From a virus (taxonomy: Duplodnaviria; Heunggongvirae; Uroviricota; Caudoviricetes), in the IMG/VR virus record IMGVR_UViG_2711768034_000009, positions 1-27,216 of that record: a stretch of DNA of 27,216 nt; one strand, written 5' to 3'. A program made the position numbers and the translations under genes. The notes under the pieces were generated by a model. It worked only from the letters and a program-made list of their open reading frames with translations, had not been told where the DNA came from and ran no database searches. Below are positions 17,944 through 27,216 of the stretch, one piece after another (the stretch's first letter is position 1; every line of letters starts with the position of its first letter).

Positions 17944-18272
17944 GAACCTATGGCCGAAACTCTGAGGGGAAGTGGGTCCTGGTGGAAACCGACGAATATG
18001 GGTTTAATGACTCGGTGTATTTGACGACCCTGATCCAGAATCTGAAACTGGCGCCGCAGGAGTCGCCATTTTATGCGAACAACGGAATCCCGGCCGCCGG
18101 GTCGGTGATCCAGCAAATCCTGCCGACGTATTACGTAAACCGTATTCAGAAACAGTTCAGCCAGTATTTTTCCTCGCTGCAGATTGCGCTGATCAGCGAC
18201 GACCCGCCTGTTTATAACATCTCGGCAATCACAAATGCAGGTTCAAAAATAATTACACAGGTGGCCGTATGA
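17940..18272 (+). CDS. Putative baseplate wedge protein (gpW / gp25-like size and position)
   Basis: 110-aa ORF coupled to the genes on either side. Confidence 0.4.
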   Translation: MRTYGRNSEGKWVLVETDEYGFNDSVYLTTLIQNLKLAPQESPFYANNGIPAAGSVIQQILPTYYVNRIQKQFSQYFSSLQIALISDDPPVYNISAITNAGSKIITQVAV

Positions 18273-19687
18273 GCGATTTACCAGTCAGCTATACGTCAGC
18301 AGGCCCGGTTCCTCTGACGCCGGAAGAGCTACGAGCACAGCTCGTTTCTCAGGCAATTGCGCTATCTCCGGGACTCACAACTGATTTGCCTGGATCTCTG
18401 ATTGAGGACGTGGCCAGTACCGATGTCGGCGCGCTCATCGTTTGTGATCAAGCAAGGGTTGACCTGATTAACTCGGTGGGGCCACTAAAGGCTAACCTGG
18501 CCATGCTGGAGCTTCTCGCACAGCAGGCTGGTATTCCTGGGCAGAAAACGGCTGGCACAACAACAGTCCCGGTTCAGTTTTCCGGCCCCGCGGGATTTGT
18601 TATCCCACAGGGGTTTATTGTTTCTGATGGGACCTATACCTATTCAGTCAGTGATGCGACGATAATCTCGTCGTCAGGAGTGTCTGCCAGCGTATCATGC
18701 GAGGGAACAGAGACCGGGACCTGGGCGGTTCCGGTAAATACGGTTAACCAGATCATATCCAGTCTACCGTCTGACGTAACCATTACCTGCACCAACCCGA
18801 TCGCCGGCACTCCTGGTGCTGACCCGGAAACGAACTATCAGTTTCGTGATCGCGTATGGCAGGCGCAGATGGCCACCGTTCAGGGATATCCTGGATTTAT
18901 CCGGCAATATCTCACCAGCCTTGATAACGTGCAGGCGCGCCTGGTTTCTGTCATTCAGGACGGGGATAAGTGGATAGTCATGTGCGCCGGCGGTGATATT
19001 TACGATATTGCTGGCGCGCTCTATAAGTCTGCGGGGGATATCAGCCGGCTGAAAGGGTGTTCACTGAATGTAACTGGGATCACGAATGCAAATCCTGGCG
19101 TCGTCAGCACAGACCTGACTCATGGCTACACTGACGGCCAGGTTATCCGGATCACTGGCGTTACCGGGATGACGGGTATTAATGACGTTCCTCTGACCGT
19201 GACGGTACTGTCTCCTCACACTTTTTCCATCGGGATTGATACCACTTCATCCGGGACCTGGGGAGGCGGCGGCGAGGTGACACCGAACGTCAGAAACAAT
19301 ACCGTGACGGTGAATGACTGGCCTGATAACTACGTGATCCCGTTCGTGACGCCATTGCTGCAGCGGGTCACTGTGACGTATCAGTGGGGGACCGAAAGTG
19401 TTAACTACCTGACTGATGCGACGGTCGCCTCTCTGGTCTCGGCTCCTACGATTCAGTATGTGAACGGCATATTCGCCGGGAAACCGCTGAACGTTAACAA
19501 CCTGAAAGACGCATTCTTACAGGCGATTAACTCGACAATCGACATGGGGCTGATCAGCACTTTAAACGTCGTGGTCACCATCAATGGTGTGATAACGCCA
19601 CCGGATGCCGGGACGAATATCATCAGCGGCGATAAGTTCAGTTATTTTTATATCGCGTCGGATGGCGTGATCGTAACAGGGGCGTAG
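18269..19687 (+). CDS. Putative baseplate J-like protein
   Basis: 472-aa ORF in the baseplate J position. It contains the third copy of the shared roughly 60-aa module (HGYTDGQVIRITGV...). Confidence 0.5.
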   Translation: MSDLPVSYTSAGPVPLTPEELRAQLVSQAIALSPGLTTDLPGSLIEDVASTDVGALIVCDQARVDLINSVGPLKANLAMLELLAQQAGIPGQKTAGTTTVPVQFSGPAGFVIPQGFIVSDGTYTYSVSDATIISSSGVSASVSCEGTETGTWAVPVNTVNQIISSLPSDVTITCTNPIAGTPGADPETNYQFRDRVWQAQMATVQGYPGFIRQYLTSLDNVQARLVSVIQDGDKWIVMCAGGDIYDIAGALYKSAGDISRLKGCSLNVTGITNANPGVVSTDLTHGYTDGQVIRITGVTGMTGINDVPLTVTVLSPHTFSIGIDTTSSGTWGGGGEVTPNVRNNTVTVNDWPDNYVIPFVTPLLQRVTVTYQWGTESVNYLTDATVASLVSAPTIQYVNGIFAGKPLNVNNLKDAFLQAINSTIDMGLISTLNVVVTINGVITPPDAGTNIISGDKFSYFYIASDGVIVTGA

Positions 19688-19688
19688 C

Positions 19689-20393
19689 ATGCTGGACGAT
19701 ATCATCCGGTCGTATATGTATACGCAATACAACGACGATGAAAATCTGCGGGCGTTTTTTACTGCGTATAACTCGATGGCGCAGGGCATTTATGACTGGA
19801 TGGTTAATGCCAACCTGCCGATTTTCATCGGTGACTACAACACCGGAGATCAGCTCCGGTGGATTGCCCATGGCATCTATGGCGTTTTGCCGCCGGTGAT
19901 TTCCAGCAGCGATCAGCAGGAGATAGGCCCATATAACACCTTCGAATTTAACCAGCTGGCATTCAATGAGTACCGGGTGATTGACCAGTCAAACCAGGTT
20001 GTTGTCTCTGATGACCTTTTTAAGCGGATCATGACCTGGAATTTTTACAAAGGTGACGGCTTCTATTTCTCTATCCCATGGATAAAGCGGCGTATTCTGC
20101 GGTTCCTTTTGGGAGTGAATGGCACCGACATTCTCAACGACCAGCGATGGAGTATCTCGATCCAGTTTGTGGATGGCGGTATCGTGATTTCCATCTATAA
20201 AGGGCGCCGCATGTTCACGCGGAGCGCTATCTACAATGCATCGGCCTATAACTCCAGGAAGTACAACCAGAAGGACACGGCCTTTGTGATCACTGAGGAT
20301 TTCGAGTTCGCCATTTTTTTCAAGCAGGCCATGGATAGCGGCCTGCTGCACATGCCGTTTTACCAGTCAGTCACGGTTGAGATATTTGATTAG
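19689..20393 (+). CDS. Putative baseplate wedge / tail fibre attachment protein (P2 gpI / Mu gp48-like position)
   Basis: 234-aa ORF that is the last gene of the tightly coupled baseplate operon. Confidence 0.4.
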   Translation: MLDDIIRSYMYTQYNDDENLRAFFTAYNSMAQGIYDWMVNANLPIFIGDYNTGDQLRWIAHGIYGVLPPVISSSDQQEIGPYNTFEFNQLAFNEYRVIDQSNQVVVSDDLFKRIMTWNFYKGDGFYFSIPWIKRRILRFLLGVNGTDILNDQRWSISIQFVDGGIVISIYKGRRMFTRSAIYNASAYNSRKYNQKDTAFVITEDFEFAIFFKQAMDSGLLHMPFYQSVTVEIFD

Positions 20394-20645
20394 GTTTTTA
20401 TCTCGATTATCTATTGTTATATACAGATGTGATTTAACGCTCTGACAAATTATATACAGCACAACTATTGATAAAAACAAAATGGATGACATTTTTATCA
20501 TATCTATTGGCGGCATTCCTTGCTGAAAAAGAAATCCAAATAAAATAATAAGCAAGGCGCACGAAAGGAGTATTAATAAAGTAGATAGAGTTCCTAAAAG
20601 TATTTTTAAAATAGCAATAGAAGCATTATTCATAATATTCACCAT
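20367..20645 (-). CDS. Hypothetical small membrane protein, antisense to the tail operon
   Basis: 92-codon ORF in a low-GC gap that is otherwise non-coding on the + strand. The product is very hydrophobic with two or three predicted transmembrane segments. An internal Met at 20633 follows a GGTGA ribosome-binding-like motif. It is not certain that this ORF is expressed. Confidence 0.35.
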   Translation of the reverse strand: MVNIMNNASIAILKILLGTLSTLLILLSCALLIILFGFLFQQGMPPIDMIKMSSILFLSIVVLYIICQSVKSHLYITIDNRDKNLIKYLNRD

Positions 20646-20652
20646 TTAAAAG

Positions 20653-20672
20653 GCCGCGCTTGCGGTTTTTTT
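20653..20672 (+). terminator. Weak candidate intrinsic terminator upstream of the tailspike gene
   Basis: Short GC stem CCGC/GCGG with a GCTT loop followed by T7 (20666-20672). Confidence 0.3.
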
Positions 20673-20695
20673 ATTGCCTAATCCCGGAGGATACA

Positions 20696-22956
20696 TGGCA
20701 CTAACCCTTTTGGCTACAAACAACGCAGAAAGCACGCTGGCTTCTGCTATCAGCGCAACCGACACGTCGCTGATCGTTAGCGCTGGAACTGGTGCCGAGT
20801 TCCCTGATGCTGTGGCAGGCGAGAGTTACTTTAAGCTCACTCTCACCGATGCCGCCACTGGCTCACAGGTTGAGATCGTGAACGTGACAGCTAAGGCTGG
20901 AGACATCTTCACGATTGAGCGTGCGCAGGAAGGAACGCTGGCGCGTGCGTGGGCGGCCAATGATATGGTAGCCAACATGATGACGGCGGGTACCCTGAAC
21001 ATTATTGCTCAATATACCCAACAAGCAGCAGCATCAGCTGCACAGGCCGAAGAGTACAAGAATGATGCCTCTGAATACGCACTGAATAAGTTCACATTCT
21101 TTAAAACGCCGAGCGATCCGGATGGCACAATTGCAGGACTCGCTGCCACTACTAACGGACAGTCTTTTCGCGTAGCGGAAGGCCCGGAAGCGACAGCAGC
21201 ATTTAAAACCTACGAGAATCAGGATGGCGTGGCTGTGCTGCAGGCATCCCAACCCGGAACCTCAGCATTAACTGGGACCATCCGATACTACCCAAGTCTC
21301 TCGGCAGCGCAAAGCGATGCAAATGCAGGAAATATTTTAGCAAATGCAAAGTGCTGGGTAGATAACGAAGATGACGAAATGCTTGCCGACGAATACATCA
21401 ATTTATCTGGCGCATTGGTTGCAACTGGCAGACAGTCGGTATCAAAAAAATATATTTATGACATTATTCATAAAAACGATAGCCAGTATGTCATGGTTGT
21501 TATTGATAAAGACAATAACGTAAGGTTTGAAATTGATGTAAGCGGCTATTTTGAAACAGAAAATGTTTCTTTGAAAAATGGAAGCATTAAAAGCGGTGAT
21601 ATATCATTACGGATTGATGAAAACACAGATGGTTTTTTGGTGGTAGATTCTGATGGTAACGTTTTATTTGACTCTACCAACATAACTTCAAGTGGTGGGG
21701 GTACTGACCAGGGAGAGGTTACCGTAAACCTTCCTCCTCAAACATCTGCGTATAATGTTCTTTCAAAACTAAGATCTGCTCAGGATGATGTCTGCATTAT
21801 CATTAATAGCGACTCCACTGGAATAGATCACGATACCGACCCATCAACTGGGGTTTTGTTTTACAAGTGGACCAGAAAGCTTGCTAACTTTTTAGCTGCT
21901 AATTATCCAGCGTATACTGTTAATTATTATACATGGTCTGGGACAGGCTATTCTTCTGCCACTCAAATTCAGGTAGGGACATCTGGTAAAACCCTATACT
22001 TCTATAATGCAGCTGTTGCAGGTACTCAGCCATTATATCTTATGGGTAATTATTTTCAGGCTGCATATGTGCCAAGGCAAGCTGATCTGATCATAATGAA
22101 TCACGGGCATAATACTGACAGTAACGCACTTGTTTCCACTCATATGGGAATGGATTTGGCTGTAATGTATGCAATGCTTGAATGGCATCCAGCTGCAGGT
22201 GGGATGATCGTTTCGCAGAACCCACTTCGCGATAGCGAAAATGGCACAACAAGAAGTGACGGAGCGAGGCAGGCGGCAACAGCTGCCGGATTTAGTCTTA
22301 TTGATGCCTTTCAGCTTTTTCAGAATGCGGGTAAGCCAAGTGGCTGGTATATGGATAACATTCATCCTAATGCCGTTGGAGATTCTCAGATTTTTGAAAT
22401 AGTAAAAGATCTATTCGTGTGGCCAGCAGCTCCAGCTTTTAAATTGCAGGGTTTTGTTAATTCTGGGAACCTGCTAAAGAATGGCGATTTTTCTACATGG
22501 ACTGACACAAGCCAGCCTCCTGACAACTGGTCAGTAACCGGTTGTACAGCCTCAAAAGACACTACTAATTTTGAGAGTGGATCATGGGGTTTGCTTCTTA
22601 CCCAGACAGATACGATTGAGGCTTATGCAAGTCAAACGCTATCGGCAGATCTTGTTAAACGTCTGAGAGGGAAAACAGTAGCTCTTTCATGTCGTGTTTT
22701 TATCCCGACATCATCTACCAGGGCTAACTGCGGGGGGGTTCAAATACCAGAAGTATCAAATACTCGTACTTATGGAAGTTCTTCCGGTGGTCGCGGTGGG
22801 TTTGTTTGGAAAACAACCCTTGTAACTATTCCAGCTACAGCGACAGCAATTACAGTTCGAGCCGTTCTTGATACTGCCGGGGGTGTGGCAGGAAACTGGT
22901 GTACTTTTGACCGGTTAGTTTTAACATCTGGCTTTATCCCGCAAGACTCCTATTAA
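20696..22956 (+). CDS. Tailspike / tail fibre protein with SGNH (GDSL-like) esterase domain and C-terminal carbohydrate-binding-like domain
   Basis: The ATG at 20696 follows GGAGG (20686-20690); the ORF track's TTG at 20674 is rejected. The N-terminal roughly 105 aa are paralogous to the N-terminus of the 23776 gene. The central region has SGNH hydrolase blocks: IIINSDSTG (block I Ser), NHGHNTD (block III) and DNIHPN (block V Asp-x-x-His). The gene is low-GC. Confidence 0.65.
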
Positions 22957-24811: not shown

Positions 24812-25972
24812 TTACACTCCTGCACGACCATCGATGTAATCAGCCCACCACTGCATCATTTCTCTGCGCTTATCGAGATACTGCGCATGGTTGTAAATAC
24901 CGCGCACAGATCCGCCGTTGGCATGTGCCAGTTGCACTTCAATAGCGTCAGCAGGCCATTCGTGCTCGTTCATAATTGTGCTGAATTCATGCCTGAATCC
25001 GTGACCGCTTTCCAGACCCTCATAGCCGATTTGTTTGATCACAAGCAATACCGCGTTCTCGCAGATTGGCTTCTTCTTATCGTTGCGACCGGCAAAAACA
25101 AACTCTGATACTGGTTTAGTGATTGAGCTTAGCGTAGTGAGAAGTTCAACAACCTGGTCTGACATAGGAACCACATGAATTTTGCGACCCTTCATCACAC
25201 TGGCGTCGATGGTGATAATCCTGTTTTCAAAATCGACGTTCTTCCATTGCATGGAACGAAGCTCTTTCGTTCTTAGGGCTGTATAGCGTAAAACCTTGGT
25301 CGCAATGAGCGATACGATGCTTCCTGAAAATGTTGCCAGTGCTTTGTTAAATGCCGGGATCTGGTCTGCAGGAAGAAACGGGAAGTTTTTCTTGCGGTAT
25401 CCCTTCATGGCGTCAGCAAGGTCAGGTGCCGGGTTATATTTAGCCCTACCAGTGACAATAGCGTAACGGAAAACCTCGCCACATCTTCTGCGGGCTTTGT
25501 TGGCTCGCTCCATTGCACCGCGATCTTCAAATCTGCGGATTACTTCCAGCAGTTGCATCGGCTCAATATCCAGAATCTCGAGACCGCCGATGATGGGTAA
25601 AATGTCGTCATCAAACATTTTGGCAAGTTCAGTCGCATACCCTACAGACCACACTTGCTTCTTGTGCTCGTACCATTCCTTGTAAATGGCACTAAAGGAG
25701 TTGTTGTTAGACGAAGCCTTTTTCGCTTTTACCGGATCTATGCCAACCGAGATGTCTTTCCTCGCAGTCCATGCTTTATCCCTTGCCTCCTGCAAAGTCA
25801 TAAGCGGATATTTTCCGACAGTCAGGATTTTCTCCTTACCGTCAATCTTGTAGCGAAGCTGCCATACCTTTTTCCCTGACACAGGGACATAAAGGTACAG
25901 GCCATTACCATCGAGAAGGCGGTATGGTTTTTCTTTCGGCTTTGCTGCTTCAATCTGCTTAACGGTGAGCAT
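24812..25972 (-). CDS. intS: Tyrosine integrase (IntS-like)
   Basis: The product from the first ATG (25972) begins MLTVKQIEAAKPKEKPYRLLDGNGLYLYVPVSGKKVWQLRYK, which I recognise as IntS-like, with a C-terminal catalytic region (...HGFRHEFST...). The ORF track's 26008 start is an upstream GTG. It is adjacent to a tRNA-Arg gene. Confidence 0.9.
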   Translation of the reverse strand: MLTVKQIEAAKPKEKPYRLLDGNGLYLYVPVSGKKVWQLRYKIDGKEKILTVGKYPLMTLQEARDKAWTARKDISVGIDPVKAKKASSNNNSFSAIYKEWYEHKKQVWSVGYATELAKMFDDDILPIIGGLEILDIEPMQLLEVIRRFEDRGAMERANKARRRCGEVFRYAIVTGRAKYNPAPDLADAMKGYRKKNFPFLPADQIPAFNKALATFSGSIVSLIATKVLRYTALRTKELRSMQWKNVDFENRIITIDASVMKGRKIHVVPMSDQVVELLTTLSSITKPVSEFVFAGRNDKKKPICENAVLLVIKQIGYEGLESGHGFRHEFSTIMNEHEWPADAIEVQLAHANGGSVRGIYNHAQYLDKRREMMQWWADYIDGRAGV

Positions 25973-26133
25973 GGGTAAAAATCCGGTGGGTAAAATTATT
26001 TTATCCACTTTTTACCCGTCATGGAGTGCGGCTGTCAACGATCTGACGCGAACCATTACGAACTGTGAATCTATGGAAGGCTTGCTATTCAGGGGATTTT
26101 GCGGACTGGTACGGATGGGAGCGAACTGATAAA

Positions 26134-26208
26134 TGGTGTCCCCTGCAGGAATCGAACCTGCAATTAGCCCTTAGGAGGGGCTCGTTATATCCATTTAACT
26201 AAGAGGAC
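26134..26208 (-). tRNA. argW: tRNA-Arg (anticodon CCU)
   Basis: The reverse complement of 26134-26208 is GTCCTCTTAGTTAAATGGATATAACGAGCCCCTCCTAAGGGCTAATTGCAGGTTCGATTCCTGCAGGGGACACCA. It folds by hand into a cloverleaf with a 7-bp acceptor stem, D-stem GTTA/TAAC, anticodon stem AGCCC/GGGCT with loop CTCCTAA (anticodon CCT), T-arm GCAGG/CCTGC and a CCA end. Confidence 0.85.
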
Positions 26209-26219
26209 AATGCGGCATG

Positions 26220-26248
26220 AGTATACCCGCTAATGGAGTGCGGGGTAA
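26220..26248 (-). promoter_or_regulatory. Candidate sigma70 promoter for the tRNA-Arg gene
   Basis: On the minus strand, TATACT lies about 12 nt upstream of the tRNA 5' end, with a weak TTACCC 17 nt further upstream and a GC-rich discriminator. Confidence 0.3.
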
Positions 26249-26283
26249 GTACGCTGCCGCTCGATTGCTTAAACCCTCGCCAT

Positions 26284-27216
26284 TTATGCCGGGTTTTTAT
26301 AATTTTTCTTAATGTTTTCCGCACGTTCTGCTTTTTGGCGTGCTTCTGCTTTACGCTTATTGCTCATGTCGTTACGAATCTGTGCATGACTCATTAACGC
26401 GAAGATAAAGGTGCCGCCGCAGATGTTCCCCGCTAAAGTAGGTAGTGCGAAGGGCCAGATGAAATCGCTCCAGTGCAGCGTACCGTTAAACACCAGATAG
26501 AGGATTTCAACAGAACCGACCACGATATGGGTGGTGTCACCCAGGGCAATAAGCCAGGTCATCAATATAATCACCACAATCTTTGCCGCACCCGCTGCAG
26601 GAAACATCCAAACCATAGTGGCGATCAGCCAGCCGGAAATGATCGCGTTGGCAAACATCTCGCTGGGGGTGTTCTTCATCACATCCATGCCGATTTTGAC
26701 AAATGCATCGCGAGTTTCTTCATTGAAGATAGGCATATATTCAAATGCCCACGCCGCAATACCTGTCCCGAGAATATTACCCAGCAGCACGACGCCCCAT
26801 AACCGTATAAGTAAGCCGACGTTGCTCATTGTCGGTTTTTGCATGACGGGTAGTACCGCAGTCACGGTGTTTTCGGTAAATAATTGCTGGCGGGCCATAA
26901 TGACGATAATAAAACCAAAGGTATAACCGAGATTCTCCAGCAAGAAGCTGCCCGGCACACCTTCCAGTTCGACATGAAATATCCCTTTTGCCAGTAACGA
27001 AGCGCCCATCGACAGACCCGCCGCAATGGCTGACCACAGTAGCGCCATTGCGTCGCGTTCCAGCTCTTTTTCACCATCCTGGCGGATATGCTCATGAATT
27101 GCCATCGCCCGGGAGGGGAGTCGGTCTTCATCTATTTCTATTTTTTTGCCGCGCTCTTTTTCTTCGCTCTCAACTTCAATTTCGTCGCTGTGTTGATCAA
27201 TTTTGTCGTTGTCCAT
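26284..27216 (-). CDS. yfdC: Inner-membrane protein of the formate/nitrite transporter family (YfdC-like), host chromosomal gene
   Basis: 310-aa ORF with multiple transmembrane helices and a charged N-terminus (MDNDKIDQHSDEIEVESEEKERGKK...). Recognised from memory as E. coli yfdC-like, and its position next to argW matches the K-12 locus. The start codon lies at the window edge. Confidence 0.8.
   Translation of the reverse strand: MDNDKIDQHSDEIEVESEEKERGKKIEIDEDRLPSRAMAIHEHIRQDGEKELERDAMALLWSAIAAGLSMGASLLAKGIFHVELEGVPGSFLLENLGYTFGFIIVIMARQQLFTENTVTAVLPVMQKPTMSNVGLLIRLWGVVLLGNILGTGIAAWAFEYMPIFNEETRDAFVKIGMDVMKNTPSEMFANAIISGWLIATMVWMFPAAGAAKIVVIILMTWLIALGDTTHIVVGSVEILYLVFNGTLHWSDFIWPFALPTLAGNICGGTFIFALMSHAQIRNDMSNKRKAEARQKAERAENIKKNYKNPA

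What the first reader, a model, noticed from the sequence alone, without database searches (positions are those of the whole stretch)
20367..20645. Antisense small membrane-protein ORF in the low-GC gap between baseplate and tailspike genes
The 280-bp gap (20394-20695) is the only sizeable non-coding stretch in the tail operon and is AT-rich. A 92-codon open frame on the opposite strand is unexpected there because AT-rich DNA is stop-codon-rich. The product is extremely hydrophobic with two or three predicted transmembrane helices, as expected for a small membrane moron such as a superinfection-exclusion or immunity protein. No clear promoter or terminator was found for it.
Basis: partly seen in the sequence, partly recalled or inferred. 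Interest (0 to 1): 0.45.

Follow-up and report, generated by a model that had tools for sequence, protein, structure and literature searches.

The report
Unannotated prophage small membrane-protein gene
The antisense open frame between the baseplate and tailspike genes of this E. coli prophage is a real gene for a two-helix inner-membrane protein. It belongs to a conserved but uncharacterised family that sits where phage P22 keeps its superinfection-exclusion gene, so it probably protects the lysogen from related phages, though this is untested.

Summary
A 92-codon frame lies on the minus strand at 20367-20645, in a 31% GC, 301-bp gap between a 234-aa baseplate gene and the tailspike gene of a Felixviridae-type prophage.

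It is a real gene. Homologues at 25-59% identity occupy the same antisense position in 22 of 80 related viral contigs and in prophages of at least 10 enterobacterial genera. A profile search finds 123 protein clusters, all named hypothetical. dN/dS is 0.08-0.19 for unsaturated pairs. The conserved start is Met5 (ATG 20633, SD GGTGA), giving 88 aa.

Predicted structure is a helical hairpin with two TM helices, N-in/C-in, and a conserved periplasmic loop. There is no hit to Pfam, NCBIfam, PADLOC, PHROGs or PDB, and no similarity to P22 SieA, HK97 gp15 or T4 Imm.

The slot is a cargo hot spot. It is empty in distant relatives. Elsewhere it holds signal-peptide or lipoprotein genes (15 of 15), or a P22 immI-like module beside the small gene.

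Best reading: a prophage-expressed blocker of DNA entry, by inference only. One caveat: most homologues have an extended -10 promoter, but this allele lacks that segment.

The parts
20367..20633 (-). Coding sequence of the small membrane protein. It is 88 aa plus a stop at 20369-20367, starting at the family-conserved MNN. TM1 is about residues 11-36, the periplasmic loop 37-47 (QQGMPPIDMIK), TM2 about 45-66, and the basic cytoplasmic tail 67-88.
   Evidence: ORF. Conserved start and alignment. hmmsearch with the family profile scores 103 bits, E 4.7e-30. Hydropathy and charge distribution. AlphaFold2 gives pLDDT 87.5 with helices 3-38 and 43-87.
20634..20645 (-). Four in-frame upstream codons (ATG GTG AAT ATT), most likely 5' leader rather than coding. 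They contain the Shine-Dalgarno GGTGA (20643-20639), 5 nt before ATG 20633.
   Evidence: Every homologue has an SD 5-8 nt before the MNN start, while the N-terminal extension is not conserved. RefSeq and other gene callers give 88-aa forms.
20367..20393 (.). Antisense overlap of 27 nt between the 3' end of the small gene and the 3' end of the 234-aa baseplate gene. The two genes are convergent, with no room for a terminator between them.
   Evidence: Coordinates. In 97-aa homologues the two stop codons abut with no overlap; in 82-aa homologues the overlap is 11 nt.
20394..20647 (.). Low-GC cargo segment that fills the slot. It lies between the stop of the 234-aa gene and the backbone terminator hairpin.
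   Evidence: Related prophages and phages match only the flanks (about 20300-20393 and 20664-20760) and carry other DNA in between. GC is 0.31.
20648..20672 (+). Plus-strand intrinsic-terminator-like hairpin (AAAAGGCCGC GCTT GCGGTTTTTT plus T). It lies 14 nt upstream of the small gene's ATG as read on the minus strand, and 22 nt before the tailspike ATG.
   Evidence: It folds at -11.9 kcal/mol on the + strand (z -2.2) and only as a 4-bp stem on the - strand. A hairpin plus T-run of different sequence at the same place precedes the tailspike RBS in nearly all relatives, including those with an empty slot. The simple terminator scan did not flag it.
20688..20716 (-). Weak candidate sigma-70 promoter for leftward transcription: -35 TAGCCA at 20716-20711, a 17-nt spacer, -10 TATCCT at 20693-20688. 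It overlaps the tailspike RBS and start codon. Unverified.
   Evidence: This was the best match found upstream of the gene in this allele, 8 of 12. The tool scan found no promoter there at 9 of 12. The extended -10 (TGnTAnnAT) present in most homologues is missing here.
19689..20393 (+). Conserved 234-aa baseplate-module gene (phrog_8212) that forms the left border of the slot.
   Evidence: It lies next to the Baseplate_J/E1_FCCH gene at 18269-19687.
20695..22956 (+). Tailspike or tail-fibre gene (753 aa, conserved N-terminal anchor, SGNH/GDSL esterase domain) that forms the right border of the slot. Its RBS is GGAGGA at 20686-20691.
   Evidence: The N-terminal 100 aa are conserved in relatives while the distal domains differ.

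Best explanation
The gene at 20367-20633 (minus strand) encodes an 88-aa inner-membrane helical hairpin. Both ends face the cytoplasm and a short conserved loop faces the periplasm. It belongs to a family that is specific to Felixviridae-type temperate phages of Enterobacterales.

The gene is a cargo (moron-type) gene, placed antisense between the last baseplate gene and the tailspike gene. This is the position P22 uses for sieA.

Proposed mechanism (inferred): in the lysogen, where the late operon is silent, the gene is transcribed leftward on its own. The protein inserts into the inner membrane and blocks genome delivery by superinfecting phages that use the same tail and injection apparatus, as P22 SieA, HK97 gp15 and T4 Imm do. 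Convergent late transcription would silence it during lytic growth.

Shown here:
- the gene is real
- the family is conserved and under purifying selection
- the genomic position is constant
- the fold and topology are predicted as described
- the alternative cargo in the slot is envelope-targeted

Inferred:
- expression in the lysogen
- inner-membrane location
- the exclusion function and its target
For: Real, selected gene:
- Homologues at 25-59% identity are in the same place and orientation.
- The profile search finds 123 clusters in at least 10 enterobacterial genera.
- dN/dS is 0.08-0.19 for unsaturated pairs.
- Window versus L035 differ at 94 of 267 nt with codon positions 38/18/38. Only 1.3% of neutral simulations keep the frame open.

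Topology:
- Two hydropathy peaks. K/R average 1.2 in the N-terminal segment and 6.2 in the C-terminal tail (net charge +2.3), and the loop has a net charge of -0.6.
- AlphaFold2 predicts a hairpin at pLDDT 87.5.

Constant context:
- The gene always directly follows the 234-aa baseplate gene, antisense, and precedes tail fibres of many unrelated types (SGNH, TolB-like, Gp53-like_C, Gly_rich).
- It therefore tracks the conserved tail and baseplate module, not the receptor-binding domain.

Own promoter in relatives:
- An extended -10 (TGATATAAT, TGATACAAT, TGCTAAGAT, TGGTAAAAT) lies 25-30 nt upstream of the ATG.

The slot behaves like an exclusion or conversion hot spot:
- It is empty (67-69 bp) in some relatives.
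- 15 of 15 alternative single-gene cargos have signal-peptide or lipobox N-termini, against 2 of 26 backbone proteins.
- In L057 the order is small gene(-), Arc-like(-), Bro-N(+), ORF6N(+), tailspike(+). This mirrors P22 gene 16, sieA(-), mnt(-), arc/ant(+), gene 9.

Parallels with SieA biology (PMC10883804):
- Patchy presence: 22 of 66 P22-like phages carry sieA, and 22 of 80 contigs here carry the small gene.
[quoted passage not shown] Fast divergence relative to neighbours:
- Window versus L035 is 51% aa identity, against 95% for the adjacent gene at similar dS (0.75 versus 0.87).
Against: - No expression, localisation or phenotype data exist for any family member.
- There is no sequence similarity to SieA, gp15 or Imm (hhalign probability below 1%). 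There is no hit in PADLOC, Pfam, NCBIfam or PHROGs.
- In the window allele and the L035 type, the roughly 28-nt segment carrying the extended -10 promoter of other members is absent. Only 14 nt separate the hairpin from the ATG, and only a weak 8-of-12 promoter match lies further upstream.
- This allele deviates from the family at 3 of 15 nearly invariant positions (L30I, N45M, C65S) and scores lowest against the family profile.
- dN/dS in its clade is higher, 0.28-0.57.
- No terminator for the minus-strand gene was found.
- A helical hairpin is a generic fold, so the fold search was uninformative.
Confidence: 0.45

Rival explanations
1. Lysogenic-conversion factor acting on surface-polysaccharide synthesis rather than on DNA entry. 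Under this reading, a small membrane protein inhibits or modulates an inner-membrane enzyme such as Wzy, Wzz or a capsule polymerase. This alters the receptor of tailspike-bearing phages, as the small hydrophobic O-antigen polymerase inhibitors of Pseudomonas phage D3 (Iap) and Salmonella phage epsilon15 do (from my own knowledge).
For: The gene lies directly next to a polysaccharide-directed tailspike gene with an SGNH/GDSL esterase domain. The product is a predicted inner-membrane protein. One relative carries an Acyl_transf_3 gene near its tail-fibre genes, so conversion genes do occur in these prophages.
Against: Nearly the same allele (at least 96% identical) accompanies different tailspikes: SGNH types and a TolB-like type. 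The family spans at least 10 genera with unrelated fibre types. Wzy and Wzz targets are serotype-specific. The gene co-varies with the baseplate module, not with the receptor-binding domain.
Confidence: 0.13
2. Membrane-active toxin or effector. This could be a holin-like or abortive-infection protein, or a type I toxin-like peptide whose mRNA is countered by the fully complementary late-operon transcript. It would kill or arrest the cell under particular conditions rather than exclude DNA entry.
For: The protein is small and very hydrophobic, with two TM helices and a charged C-terminal tail, as in class II holins. The gene is embedded antisense in a strongly transcribed operon. A + strand terminator sits just past its 5' end. 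There are sub-threshold Pfam matches to Phage_holin_2 and TcpE.
Against: - The lysis cassette is about 20 kb away (Rz at 129-587), and relatives have their own holin.
- At 88-97 aa with two TM helices it is larger than type I toxins.
- No dedicated antisense promoter or sRNA was found, and there is no Rfam hit.
- The + strand terminator is a backbone feature that is present even when the slot is empty.
- PADLOC gave no match.
- The Pfam matches are far below their gathering thresholds.
Confidence: 0.1
3. The family is functional, but this particular allele is a silent or decaying copy. A deletion removed its promoter, and it persists only because the prophage is young.
For: - The extended -10 segment found in most homologues is missing.
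- It has the lowest profile score in the family and 3 of 15 nearly invariant positions changed.
- dN/dS is 0.28-0.57 in this clade, against 0.08-0.19 elsewhere.
- PGAP does not call the ORF in E. coli.
Against: - The frame is intact in all 19 complete E. coli genomes that carry it and in the L035 type, which differs at 35% of nucleotides. P = 0.013 under neutrality.
- Second codon positions are the least changed, 18 against 38 and 38.
- The SD is retained.
- Amino-acid polymorphisms among close alleles are conservative: I/T/A, S/A, V/L, S/C, I/V.
Confidence: 0.2
4. Chance open frame in AT-rich spacer DNA, with no gene.
For: It is not annotated by PGAP in E. coli. A single-sequence word-index search found only itself.
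Against: The family is conserved at the protein level while the DNA has diverged. Purifying selection, a conserved start and SD, and a constant position all argue for a gene. The shuffle test gives 0.5%.
Confidence: 0.02

Closest known systems
P22 SieA (superinfection exclusion protein A of Salmonella phage P22 and P22-like prophages)
   Same: - A prophage cargo gene on the strand opposite to the late operon. It is convergent with the last virion injection or baseplate gene and lies upstream of the tailspike gene.
- It can be accompanied by an Arc/Mnt-type repressor and an antirepressor module in the same slot.
- It is a predicted inner-membrane protein.
- It is present in only about a third of related phages, and its sequence types are very divergent (PMC10883804).
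   Different: - SieA is 164 aa with more TM segments and a cytoplasmic FxRYPxEAxxFNK motif. This family is 82-105 aa with two TM helices and different motifs (G-I/M-P-P-F-E-N-I-K loop, IC.CLK, D.R).
- hhalign probability is 0.3%.
- The host phages are contractile-tailed Felixviridae, not P22-like podoviruses.
- The exclusion phenotype is demonstrated for SieA and untested here.
HK97 gp15 (the first described moron; YebO-like superinfection exclusion protein)
   Same: A small inner-membrane protein encoded by low-GC extra DNA inside a tail operon, followed by a terminator before the next tail gene. It blocks genome entry in a way that depends on the incoming phage's tail (PMC3594210).
   Different: gp15 is 62 aa with one TM segment. 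It is on the same strand as the tail operon and is related to bacterial YebO. There is no similarity to this family (hhalign probability 0.1%). No chromosomal, non-prophage homologues of the present family were seen.
T4 Imm (immunity to superinfection)
   Same: Similar size (83 aa) and predicted architecture: two hydrophobic helices and a charged C-terminal tail. It is annotated as preventing DNA of superinfecting phage from crossing the inner membrane.
   Different: It is an early gene of a virulent phage, not a prophage moron. There is no sequence similarity (hhalign probability 0.4%).
Receptor-blocking lipoproteins encoded next to tail-fibre or receptor-binding-protein (RBP) genes (Cor of phi80/N15, Llp of T5)
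   Same: These are envelope-targeted exclusion proteins encoded beside the receptor-binding genes (Cor: PMC3594210; Llp: my own knowledge). The alternative cargos in this same slot are lipoprotein-like or secreted proteins.
   Different: The protein studied here has no signal peptide or lipobox. It is an integral two-TM protein, so an outer-membrane receptor block is unlikely.

Membership tests
Moron (Juhala/Hendrix definition as summarised in PMC3594210) | Extra DNA between two genes that are adjacent in related phages | tested here: met
   Relatives have 67-69 bp (terminator plus RBS only) between the 234-aa gene and the tailspike gene. The window has 301 bp.
Moron (Juhala/Hendrix definition as summarised in PMC3594210) | GC content different from the surrounding genes | tested here: met
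   GC is 0.31-0.32 in the insert against 0.48-0.56 in the flanks.
Moron (Juhala/Hendrix definition as summarised in PMC3594210) | Own promoter | tested here: inconclusive
   An extended -10 promoter lies 25-30 nt upstream of the ATG in most homologues. In the window allele that segment is absent and only a weak 8-of-12 match exists at 20716-20688.
Moron (Juhala/Hendrix definition as summarised in PMC3594210) | Own terminator | tested here: not met
   The 3' end abuts or overlaps the convergent 234-aa gene, and no minus-strand terminator was detected. The nearby hairpin is a + strand backbone terminator.
Moron (Juhala/Hendrix definition as summarised in PMC3594210) | Expressed from the repressed prophage | not testable with these tools
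   No transcriptome or proteome data are accessible.
SieA family (P22-like prophages) | Sequence homology to SieA types A-C, including the cytoplasmic motif FxRYPxEAxxFNK | tested here: not met
   hhalign of the family profile against P22 SieA gives probability 0.3%. The motif is absent from the alignment.
SieA family (P22-like prophages) | Antisense gene between the last injection or tail gene and the tailspike gene | tested here: met
   P22 layout against the window and relatives.
SieA family (P22-like prophages) | [quoted passage not shown] | not testable with these tools
   Only the predicted topology is available.
HK97 gp15 / YebO family | Sequence homology to gp15/YebO | tested here: not met
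   hhalign probability 0.1%.
T4 Imm family | Sequence homology to Imm | tested here: not met
   hhalign probability 0.4%.
Holins | Membership of a holin family and location in the lysis cassette beside an endolysin | tested here: not met
   There are only sub-threshold Pfam matches (Phage_holin_2, E 0.019, in 2 of 11 members). The lysis genes are at the other end of the late region (Rz at 129-587; holin in L090).
Type I toxin-antitoxin toxins | Peptide under about 60 aa with one TM segment, plus a dedicated cis- or trans-antisense sRNA | tested here: not met
   The protein is 82-105 aa with two TM helices. No + strand promoter or sRNA was found in the gap, and there is no Rfam match above threshold.
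Known anti-phage defence proteins (PADLOC-DB 2.0) | Profile match | tested here: not met
   0 of 11 members match at E <= 1.

The most novel reading that the evidence does not exclude
This two-TM family is a new, sequence-unrelated class of superinfection-exclusion protein that blocks inner-membrane genome delivery by contractile-tailed temperate phages (Felixviridae). The baseplate-tailspike junction of these phages would then be a dedicated, freely exchangeable hot spot for envelope-located exclusion proteins. These would include inner-membrane hairpins, periplasmic proteins and lipoproteins, sometimes together with an immI-like antirepressor module. That would be convergent with the gene 16-sieA-immI-gene 9 region of P22.
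Probability: 0.4. Interest if true: 0.55.

Novelty: new member of a known kind. Interest (0 to 1): 0.4.

Why it matters
Felixviridae are a recently recognised family of temperate gut phages of Enterobacteriaceae, and almost none of their accessory genes have been characterised (bioRxiv 10.1101/2024.12.02.626457; ICTV 2025, PMC12451628).

This work turns an unannotated ORF into a defined protein family with at least 123 clusters, a fixed genomic address and a testable function. It also shows that the junction between the baseplate and tailspike genes is a swap site for envelope-targeted cargo.

If the family excludes superinfecting phages, three things follow:
- It adds a new inner-membrane exclusion protein for contractile-tailed phages.
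- It gives a handle, through escape mutants, on how their genome crosses the inner membrane.
- It matters for predicting phage susceptibility of clinical E. coli and Klebsiella lysogens.

It also shows that genome annotation pipelines systematically miss such genes.

Tried and rejected
- **Single-sequence homology search.** The word-index search found only the query's own cluster. Exhaustive phmmer found 8 hits. The family emerged only from synteny: I fetched 80 loci through the neighbouring gene and compared what lies in the slot.
- **Family libraries.** Pfam, NCBIfam, PHROGs and PADLOC gave no match above threshold. The PDB sequence search gave nothing.
- **Foldseek against BFVD.** There were no matches at E <= 0.001. 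A helical hairpin is too generic a fold. Further fold searches were not run for that reason.
- **tblastn against 50,697 sequenced phages.** Two alleles were used as queries and neither matched. The cultured relatives carry other cargo: Chronis gp22, a 230-aa + strand ORF, and RothC, a 133-aa minus-strand periplasmic ORF.
- **Rfam scan of the gap.** Only chance-level hits.
- **The hairpin as part of the cassette.** I first took the hairpin at 20648-20672 to be the gene's own element or the terminator of an antisense sRNA. I rejected this because an equivalent + strand terminator precedes the tailspike RBS even in empty-slot relatives.
- **Scan of GTDB species representatives.** With a tighter alignment it found only two further loci, in Scandinavium and Rahnella, both in the same context.
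- **Holin and type I toxin readings.** Considered and ranked low; see the rival explanations.
Full report
**What is in the sequence**

The window is the late and right arm of an integrated prophage. In order it contains:
- an Rz spanin gene (129-587)
- terminase, head and contractile-tail genes
- a Baseplate_J/E1_FCCH gene (18269-19687)
- a 234-aa baseplate-module gene (19689-20393, phrog_8212)
- the gap
- a 753-aa tailspike with an SGNH/GDSL domain (ATG 20695)
- two more fibre genes
- an integrase on the minus strand (24812-26008)
- a host formate/nitrite-transporter gene

The baseplate region is 97% identical to Klebsiella phage vB_Kpn_Chronis and 90% identical to RothC/D. These are members of the recently created family Felixviridae.

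The gap is 301 bp, has 31-32% GC against about 50% in the flanks, and is the largest gap in the + strand gene array. A stop-free stretch this long arose in only 0.5% of shuffles of the region.

**Is it a gene?**

Annotation and simple searches say little. PGAP does not call the ORF in identical or 98%-identical E. coli prophages. A single-sequence search returned only the ORF's own cluster.

Synteny settles the question. I fetched 80 viral contigs through the neighbouring 234-aa gene and examined the same slot in each. Twenty-two of the 80 carry a minus-strand hydrophobic ORF of 88-105 aa directly after the stop of the 234-aa gene. These ORFs align with the window ORF at 25-59% identity over their whole core.

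Conserved features of the family:
- a start at MNN (the window's fifth codon)
- K10
- a loop motif Q-D/E-G-I/M-P-P-F-E-N-I-K
- I-C-x-C-L-K at the end of the second helix
- D75 and R77

A profile of the family finds 123 protein clusters (90% identity). All are named 'hypothetical'. They come from E. coli, Salmonella, Citrobacter, Klebsiella, Enterobacter, Kosakonia, Kluyvera, Scandinavium, Dickeya and Izhakiella, plus Rahnella.

Selection tests agree:
- Pairs with unsaturated synonymous divergence give dN/dS of 0.08-0.19.
- The window allele and the L035 allele differ at 94 of 267 nucleotides, with second codon positions least affected (38/18/38). Only 1.3% of neutral simulations with that many changes keep the frame open.
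- Between the window and the ST540 allele there are 8 substitutions, 4 synonymous, and the frame stays intact.

The ORF is therefore a real, selected protein-coding gene.

Every homologue has a Shine-Dalgarno 5-8 nt before the MNN start. In the window this is GGTGA at 20643-20639. Some gene callers, including RefSeq (WP_420054454.1), give the 88-aa form. The gene is best placed at 20367-20633.

**The protein**

Two hydropathy maxima (2.88 and 2.31 on a 19-residue Kyte-Doolittle window) define TM1 at about residues 11-36 and TM2 at about 45-66.

Across the family the charges are distributed as follows:
- the short N-terminus carries about one K/R and no acidic residue
- the 13-residue loop has a net charge of -0.6
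- the C-terminal tail carries about six K/R (net +2.3)

By the positive-inside rule this gives N-in/C-in, with the conserved loop in the periplasm. AlphaFold2 with a 30-sequence alignment predicts a helical hairpin, helices 3-38 and 43-87, at mean pLDDT 87.5.

No family library recognises the protein: Pfam, NCBIfam, PHROGs, PADLOC and PDB sequences all gave nothing. The structural search gave only generic hairpins with no significant hit.

**The locus**

The context is constant. In E. coli, Enterobacter-type metagenomic contigs, Dickeya, Scandinavium and Rahnella, the gene is always antisense, convergent with the 234-aa gene, and upstream of the tail-fibre gene. Its 3' end overlaps the 234-aa gene by 27 nt or 11 nt, or the two stop codons abut. 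The distal fibre domains differ completely between loci: SGNH/GDSL, TolB-like, Gp53-like_C, Gly_rich. The gene therefore travels with the conserved baseplate and tail module, not with receptor specificity.

The slot itself is hypervariable:
- empty (67-69 bp) in some more distant relatives
- one + strand ORF of 154-337 aa
- one minus-strand ORF of 133-149 aa
- a 2.5-kb multi-gene insert

All cargo is low in GC (0.30-0.44). All 15 alternative single-gene cargos have signal-peptide or lipobox-like N-termini, against 2 of 26 backbone proteins, one of which is Rz.

The multi-gene inserts are P22 immI-like. They contain an Arc-like ribbon-helix-helix gene on the minus strand and Bro-N, ORF6N or P22_AR_N antirepressor genes on the plus strand.

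In L057 the order is small membrane gene(-), Arc-like(-), Bro-N(+), ORF6N(+), tailspike(+). This is the arrangement of P22: gene 16, sieA(-), mnt(-), arc/ant(+), gene 9.

**Regulatory signals**

The hairpin at 20648-20672 folds well only on the + strand, at -11.9 kcal/mol, and is followed by a T-run. An equivalent hairpin plus T-run, with different stem sequences, sits immediately before the conserved tailspike RBS (ATTGCC..CCGGAGGA) in nearly all relatives, whether or not the slot is filled. It is thus a backbone + strand terminator, not the small gene's own signal. By inference, tailspike expression requires read-through.

On the minus strand, most family members have an extended -10 promoter 25-30 nt upstream of the ATG, just past that hairpin:
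- TGATATAAT
- TGATACAAT
- TGCTAAGAT
- TGGTAAAAT

One member has a perfect TATAAT. This is good evidence that the family is an independent leftward transcription unit, able to be expressed while the late operon is silent.

The window allele and the L035 type lack this segment. Only 14 nt separate the hairpin from the ATG. The best upstream match is a weak 8-of-12 promoter (TAGCCA-17-TATCCT, 20716-20688) that overlaps the tailspike start. No minus-strand terminator was found.

The window allele also differs from the family in three other ways:
- it scores lowest against the family profile
- it departs from the consensus at three nearly invariant positions, of which C65 is retained in sister alleles
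- dN/dS in its clade is 0.28-0.57

Its expression is therefore the weakest link in the argument.

**Most likely function**

I commit to a prophage-expressed inner-membrane protein that blocks genome entry of superinfecting phages with the same tail type. This would be functionally analogous to P22 SieA (PMC10883804), HK97 gp15 (PMC3594210) and T4 Imm.

The supports are indirect:
- the position equivalent to sieA, and the occasional immI-like neighbours
- exclusively envelope-targeted alternative cargo in the slot
- patchy distribution (22 of 80 here; 22 of 66 for sieA in P22-like phages)
- linkage to the injection and baseplate module rather than to the receptor-binding domain
- amino-acid divergence much faster than the neighbours. 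Window versus L035 is 51% identical against 95% for the adjacent gene, at similar dS.

The protein is not a member of any of those three families. hhalign probabilities are 0.3%, 0.1% and 0.4%. I put this reading at about 0.45.

**Rivals**

- A conversion factor acting on polysaccharide synthesis: about 0.13. It is disfavoured because the gene is independent of tailspike type and host genus.
- A membrane toxin, holin-like or type I toxin-like effector: about 0.10. There is no partner gene, no sRNA, and the gene is far from the lysis cassette.
- A silent or decaying allele of a functional family: about 0.20. This is compatible with the family-level explanation.
- A chance ORF: about 0.02.

**Novelty and verdict**

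The kind of element is known: a moron-type small inner-membrane protein inside a tail operon. This family is unnamed, uncharacterised and often unannotated. It is absent from all 50,697 sequenced phage records searched, and it belongs to a phage family described only in 2024-2025.

I rate it a new member of a known kind, of moderate interest. Three refinements apply: the start is Met5, there are two TM helices, and the gene is a conserved family at a fixed address rather than a one-off insert. Function and expression, especially of this allele, remain unproven.

Noticed in passing
window 20394-20694; L003, L004, L014, L024, L034, L040, L042, L044, L046, L048, L049, L050, L060, L068, L073 (slot between the 234-aa gene and the tailspike): The slot is a hot spot for envelope-targeted cargo. 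All 15 alternative single-gene cargo ORFs (133-337 aa, either strand, no Pfam or PADLOC hit among the 7 of them that were scanned) have signal-peptide or lipobox-like N-termini, against 2 of 26 backbone proteins.
   Followed up: partly
L057 4055-6172 (also L058, L061, L062); L060 4442-6118: Some relatives carry a P22 immI-like module in the slot. It has an Arc-like ribbon-helix-helix gene on the minus strand and Bro-N, ORF6N or P22_AR_N antirepressor genes on the plus strand. In L057 this sits next to the small membrane gene, mirroring P22 sieA-mnt-arc-ant-gene 9.
   Followed up: partly
window 20648-20672 and the equivalent position in nearly all related loci: A + strand intrinsic terminator sits between the baseplate genes and the tailspike RBS. 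Its structure is conserved but its sequence is not, and it is present even when the slot is empty. Tailspike expression must therefore depend on read-through or antitermination.
   Followed up: partly
window 20674-20697: The mechanical ORF list starts the tailspike at TTG 20674. The conserved start is ATG 20695, with RBS GGAGGA at 20686-20691 and N-terminus MALTLLATNN.
   Followed up: yes
L001 3396-6461 (E. coli MEI008, NZ_CP074680): In this otherwise identical prophage the tailspike is annotated as a pseudogene missing its C-terminus. A second SGNH/GDSL fragment lies about 1.7 kb further on, which suggests an insertion or rearrangement in the tailspike.
   Followed up: no
L005 3106-3507 (Klebsiella phage RothC, PP934563): The deposited annotation lists three tiny minus-strand ORFs (32-44 aa) in the slot. 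A single 133-aa minus-strand ORF with a signal peptide is open there, homologous to WP_072644600.1 of E. coli.
   Followed up: partly
L014 3749-4441, L024 3698-4465, L046 3698-4711, L060 3702-4427, L068 3203-3901; Chronis gp22 (L096 833-1525): A family of secreted cargo proteins shares a mature N-terminus, SFDCxKAKxFAEKTICxDxxLSxxD, with variable C-terminal domains. The one member scanned (L060) gave no Pfam match at E <= 0.01. Cultured phage vB_Kpn_Chronis carries a 230-aa + strand ORF (gp22) in the same slot; its sequence was not read, so assigning it to this family rests on matching length and position only.
   Followed up: no
97-aa family members (e.g. L052 3706-3999, L056 1685-1978, L090 5001-5294): The longer alleles end in a conserved acidic-hydrophobic C-terminal motif, R-V/A-E/D-D/E-V-x-I/M. 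The 82-aa and 88-aa alleles, including the window's, lack it, so the cytoplasmic tail is modular.
   Followed up: no
window 24812-27216: The prophage's right end is here: an integrase on the minus strand (24812-26008), followed by a host formate/nitrite-transporter family gene (26284-27216, minus strand). The attachment site should lie at about 26.0-26.3 kb.
   Followed up: no
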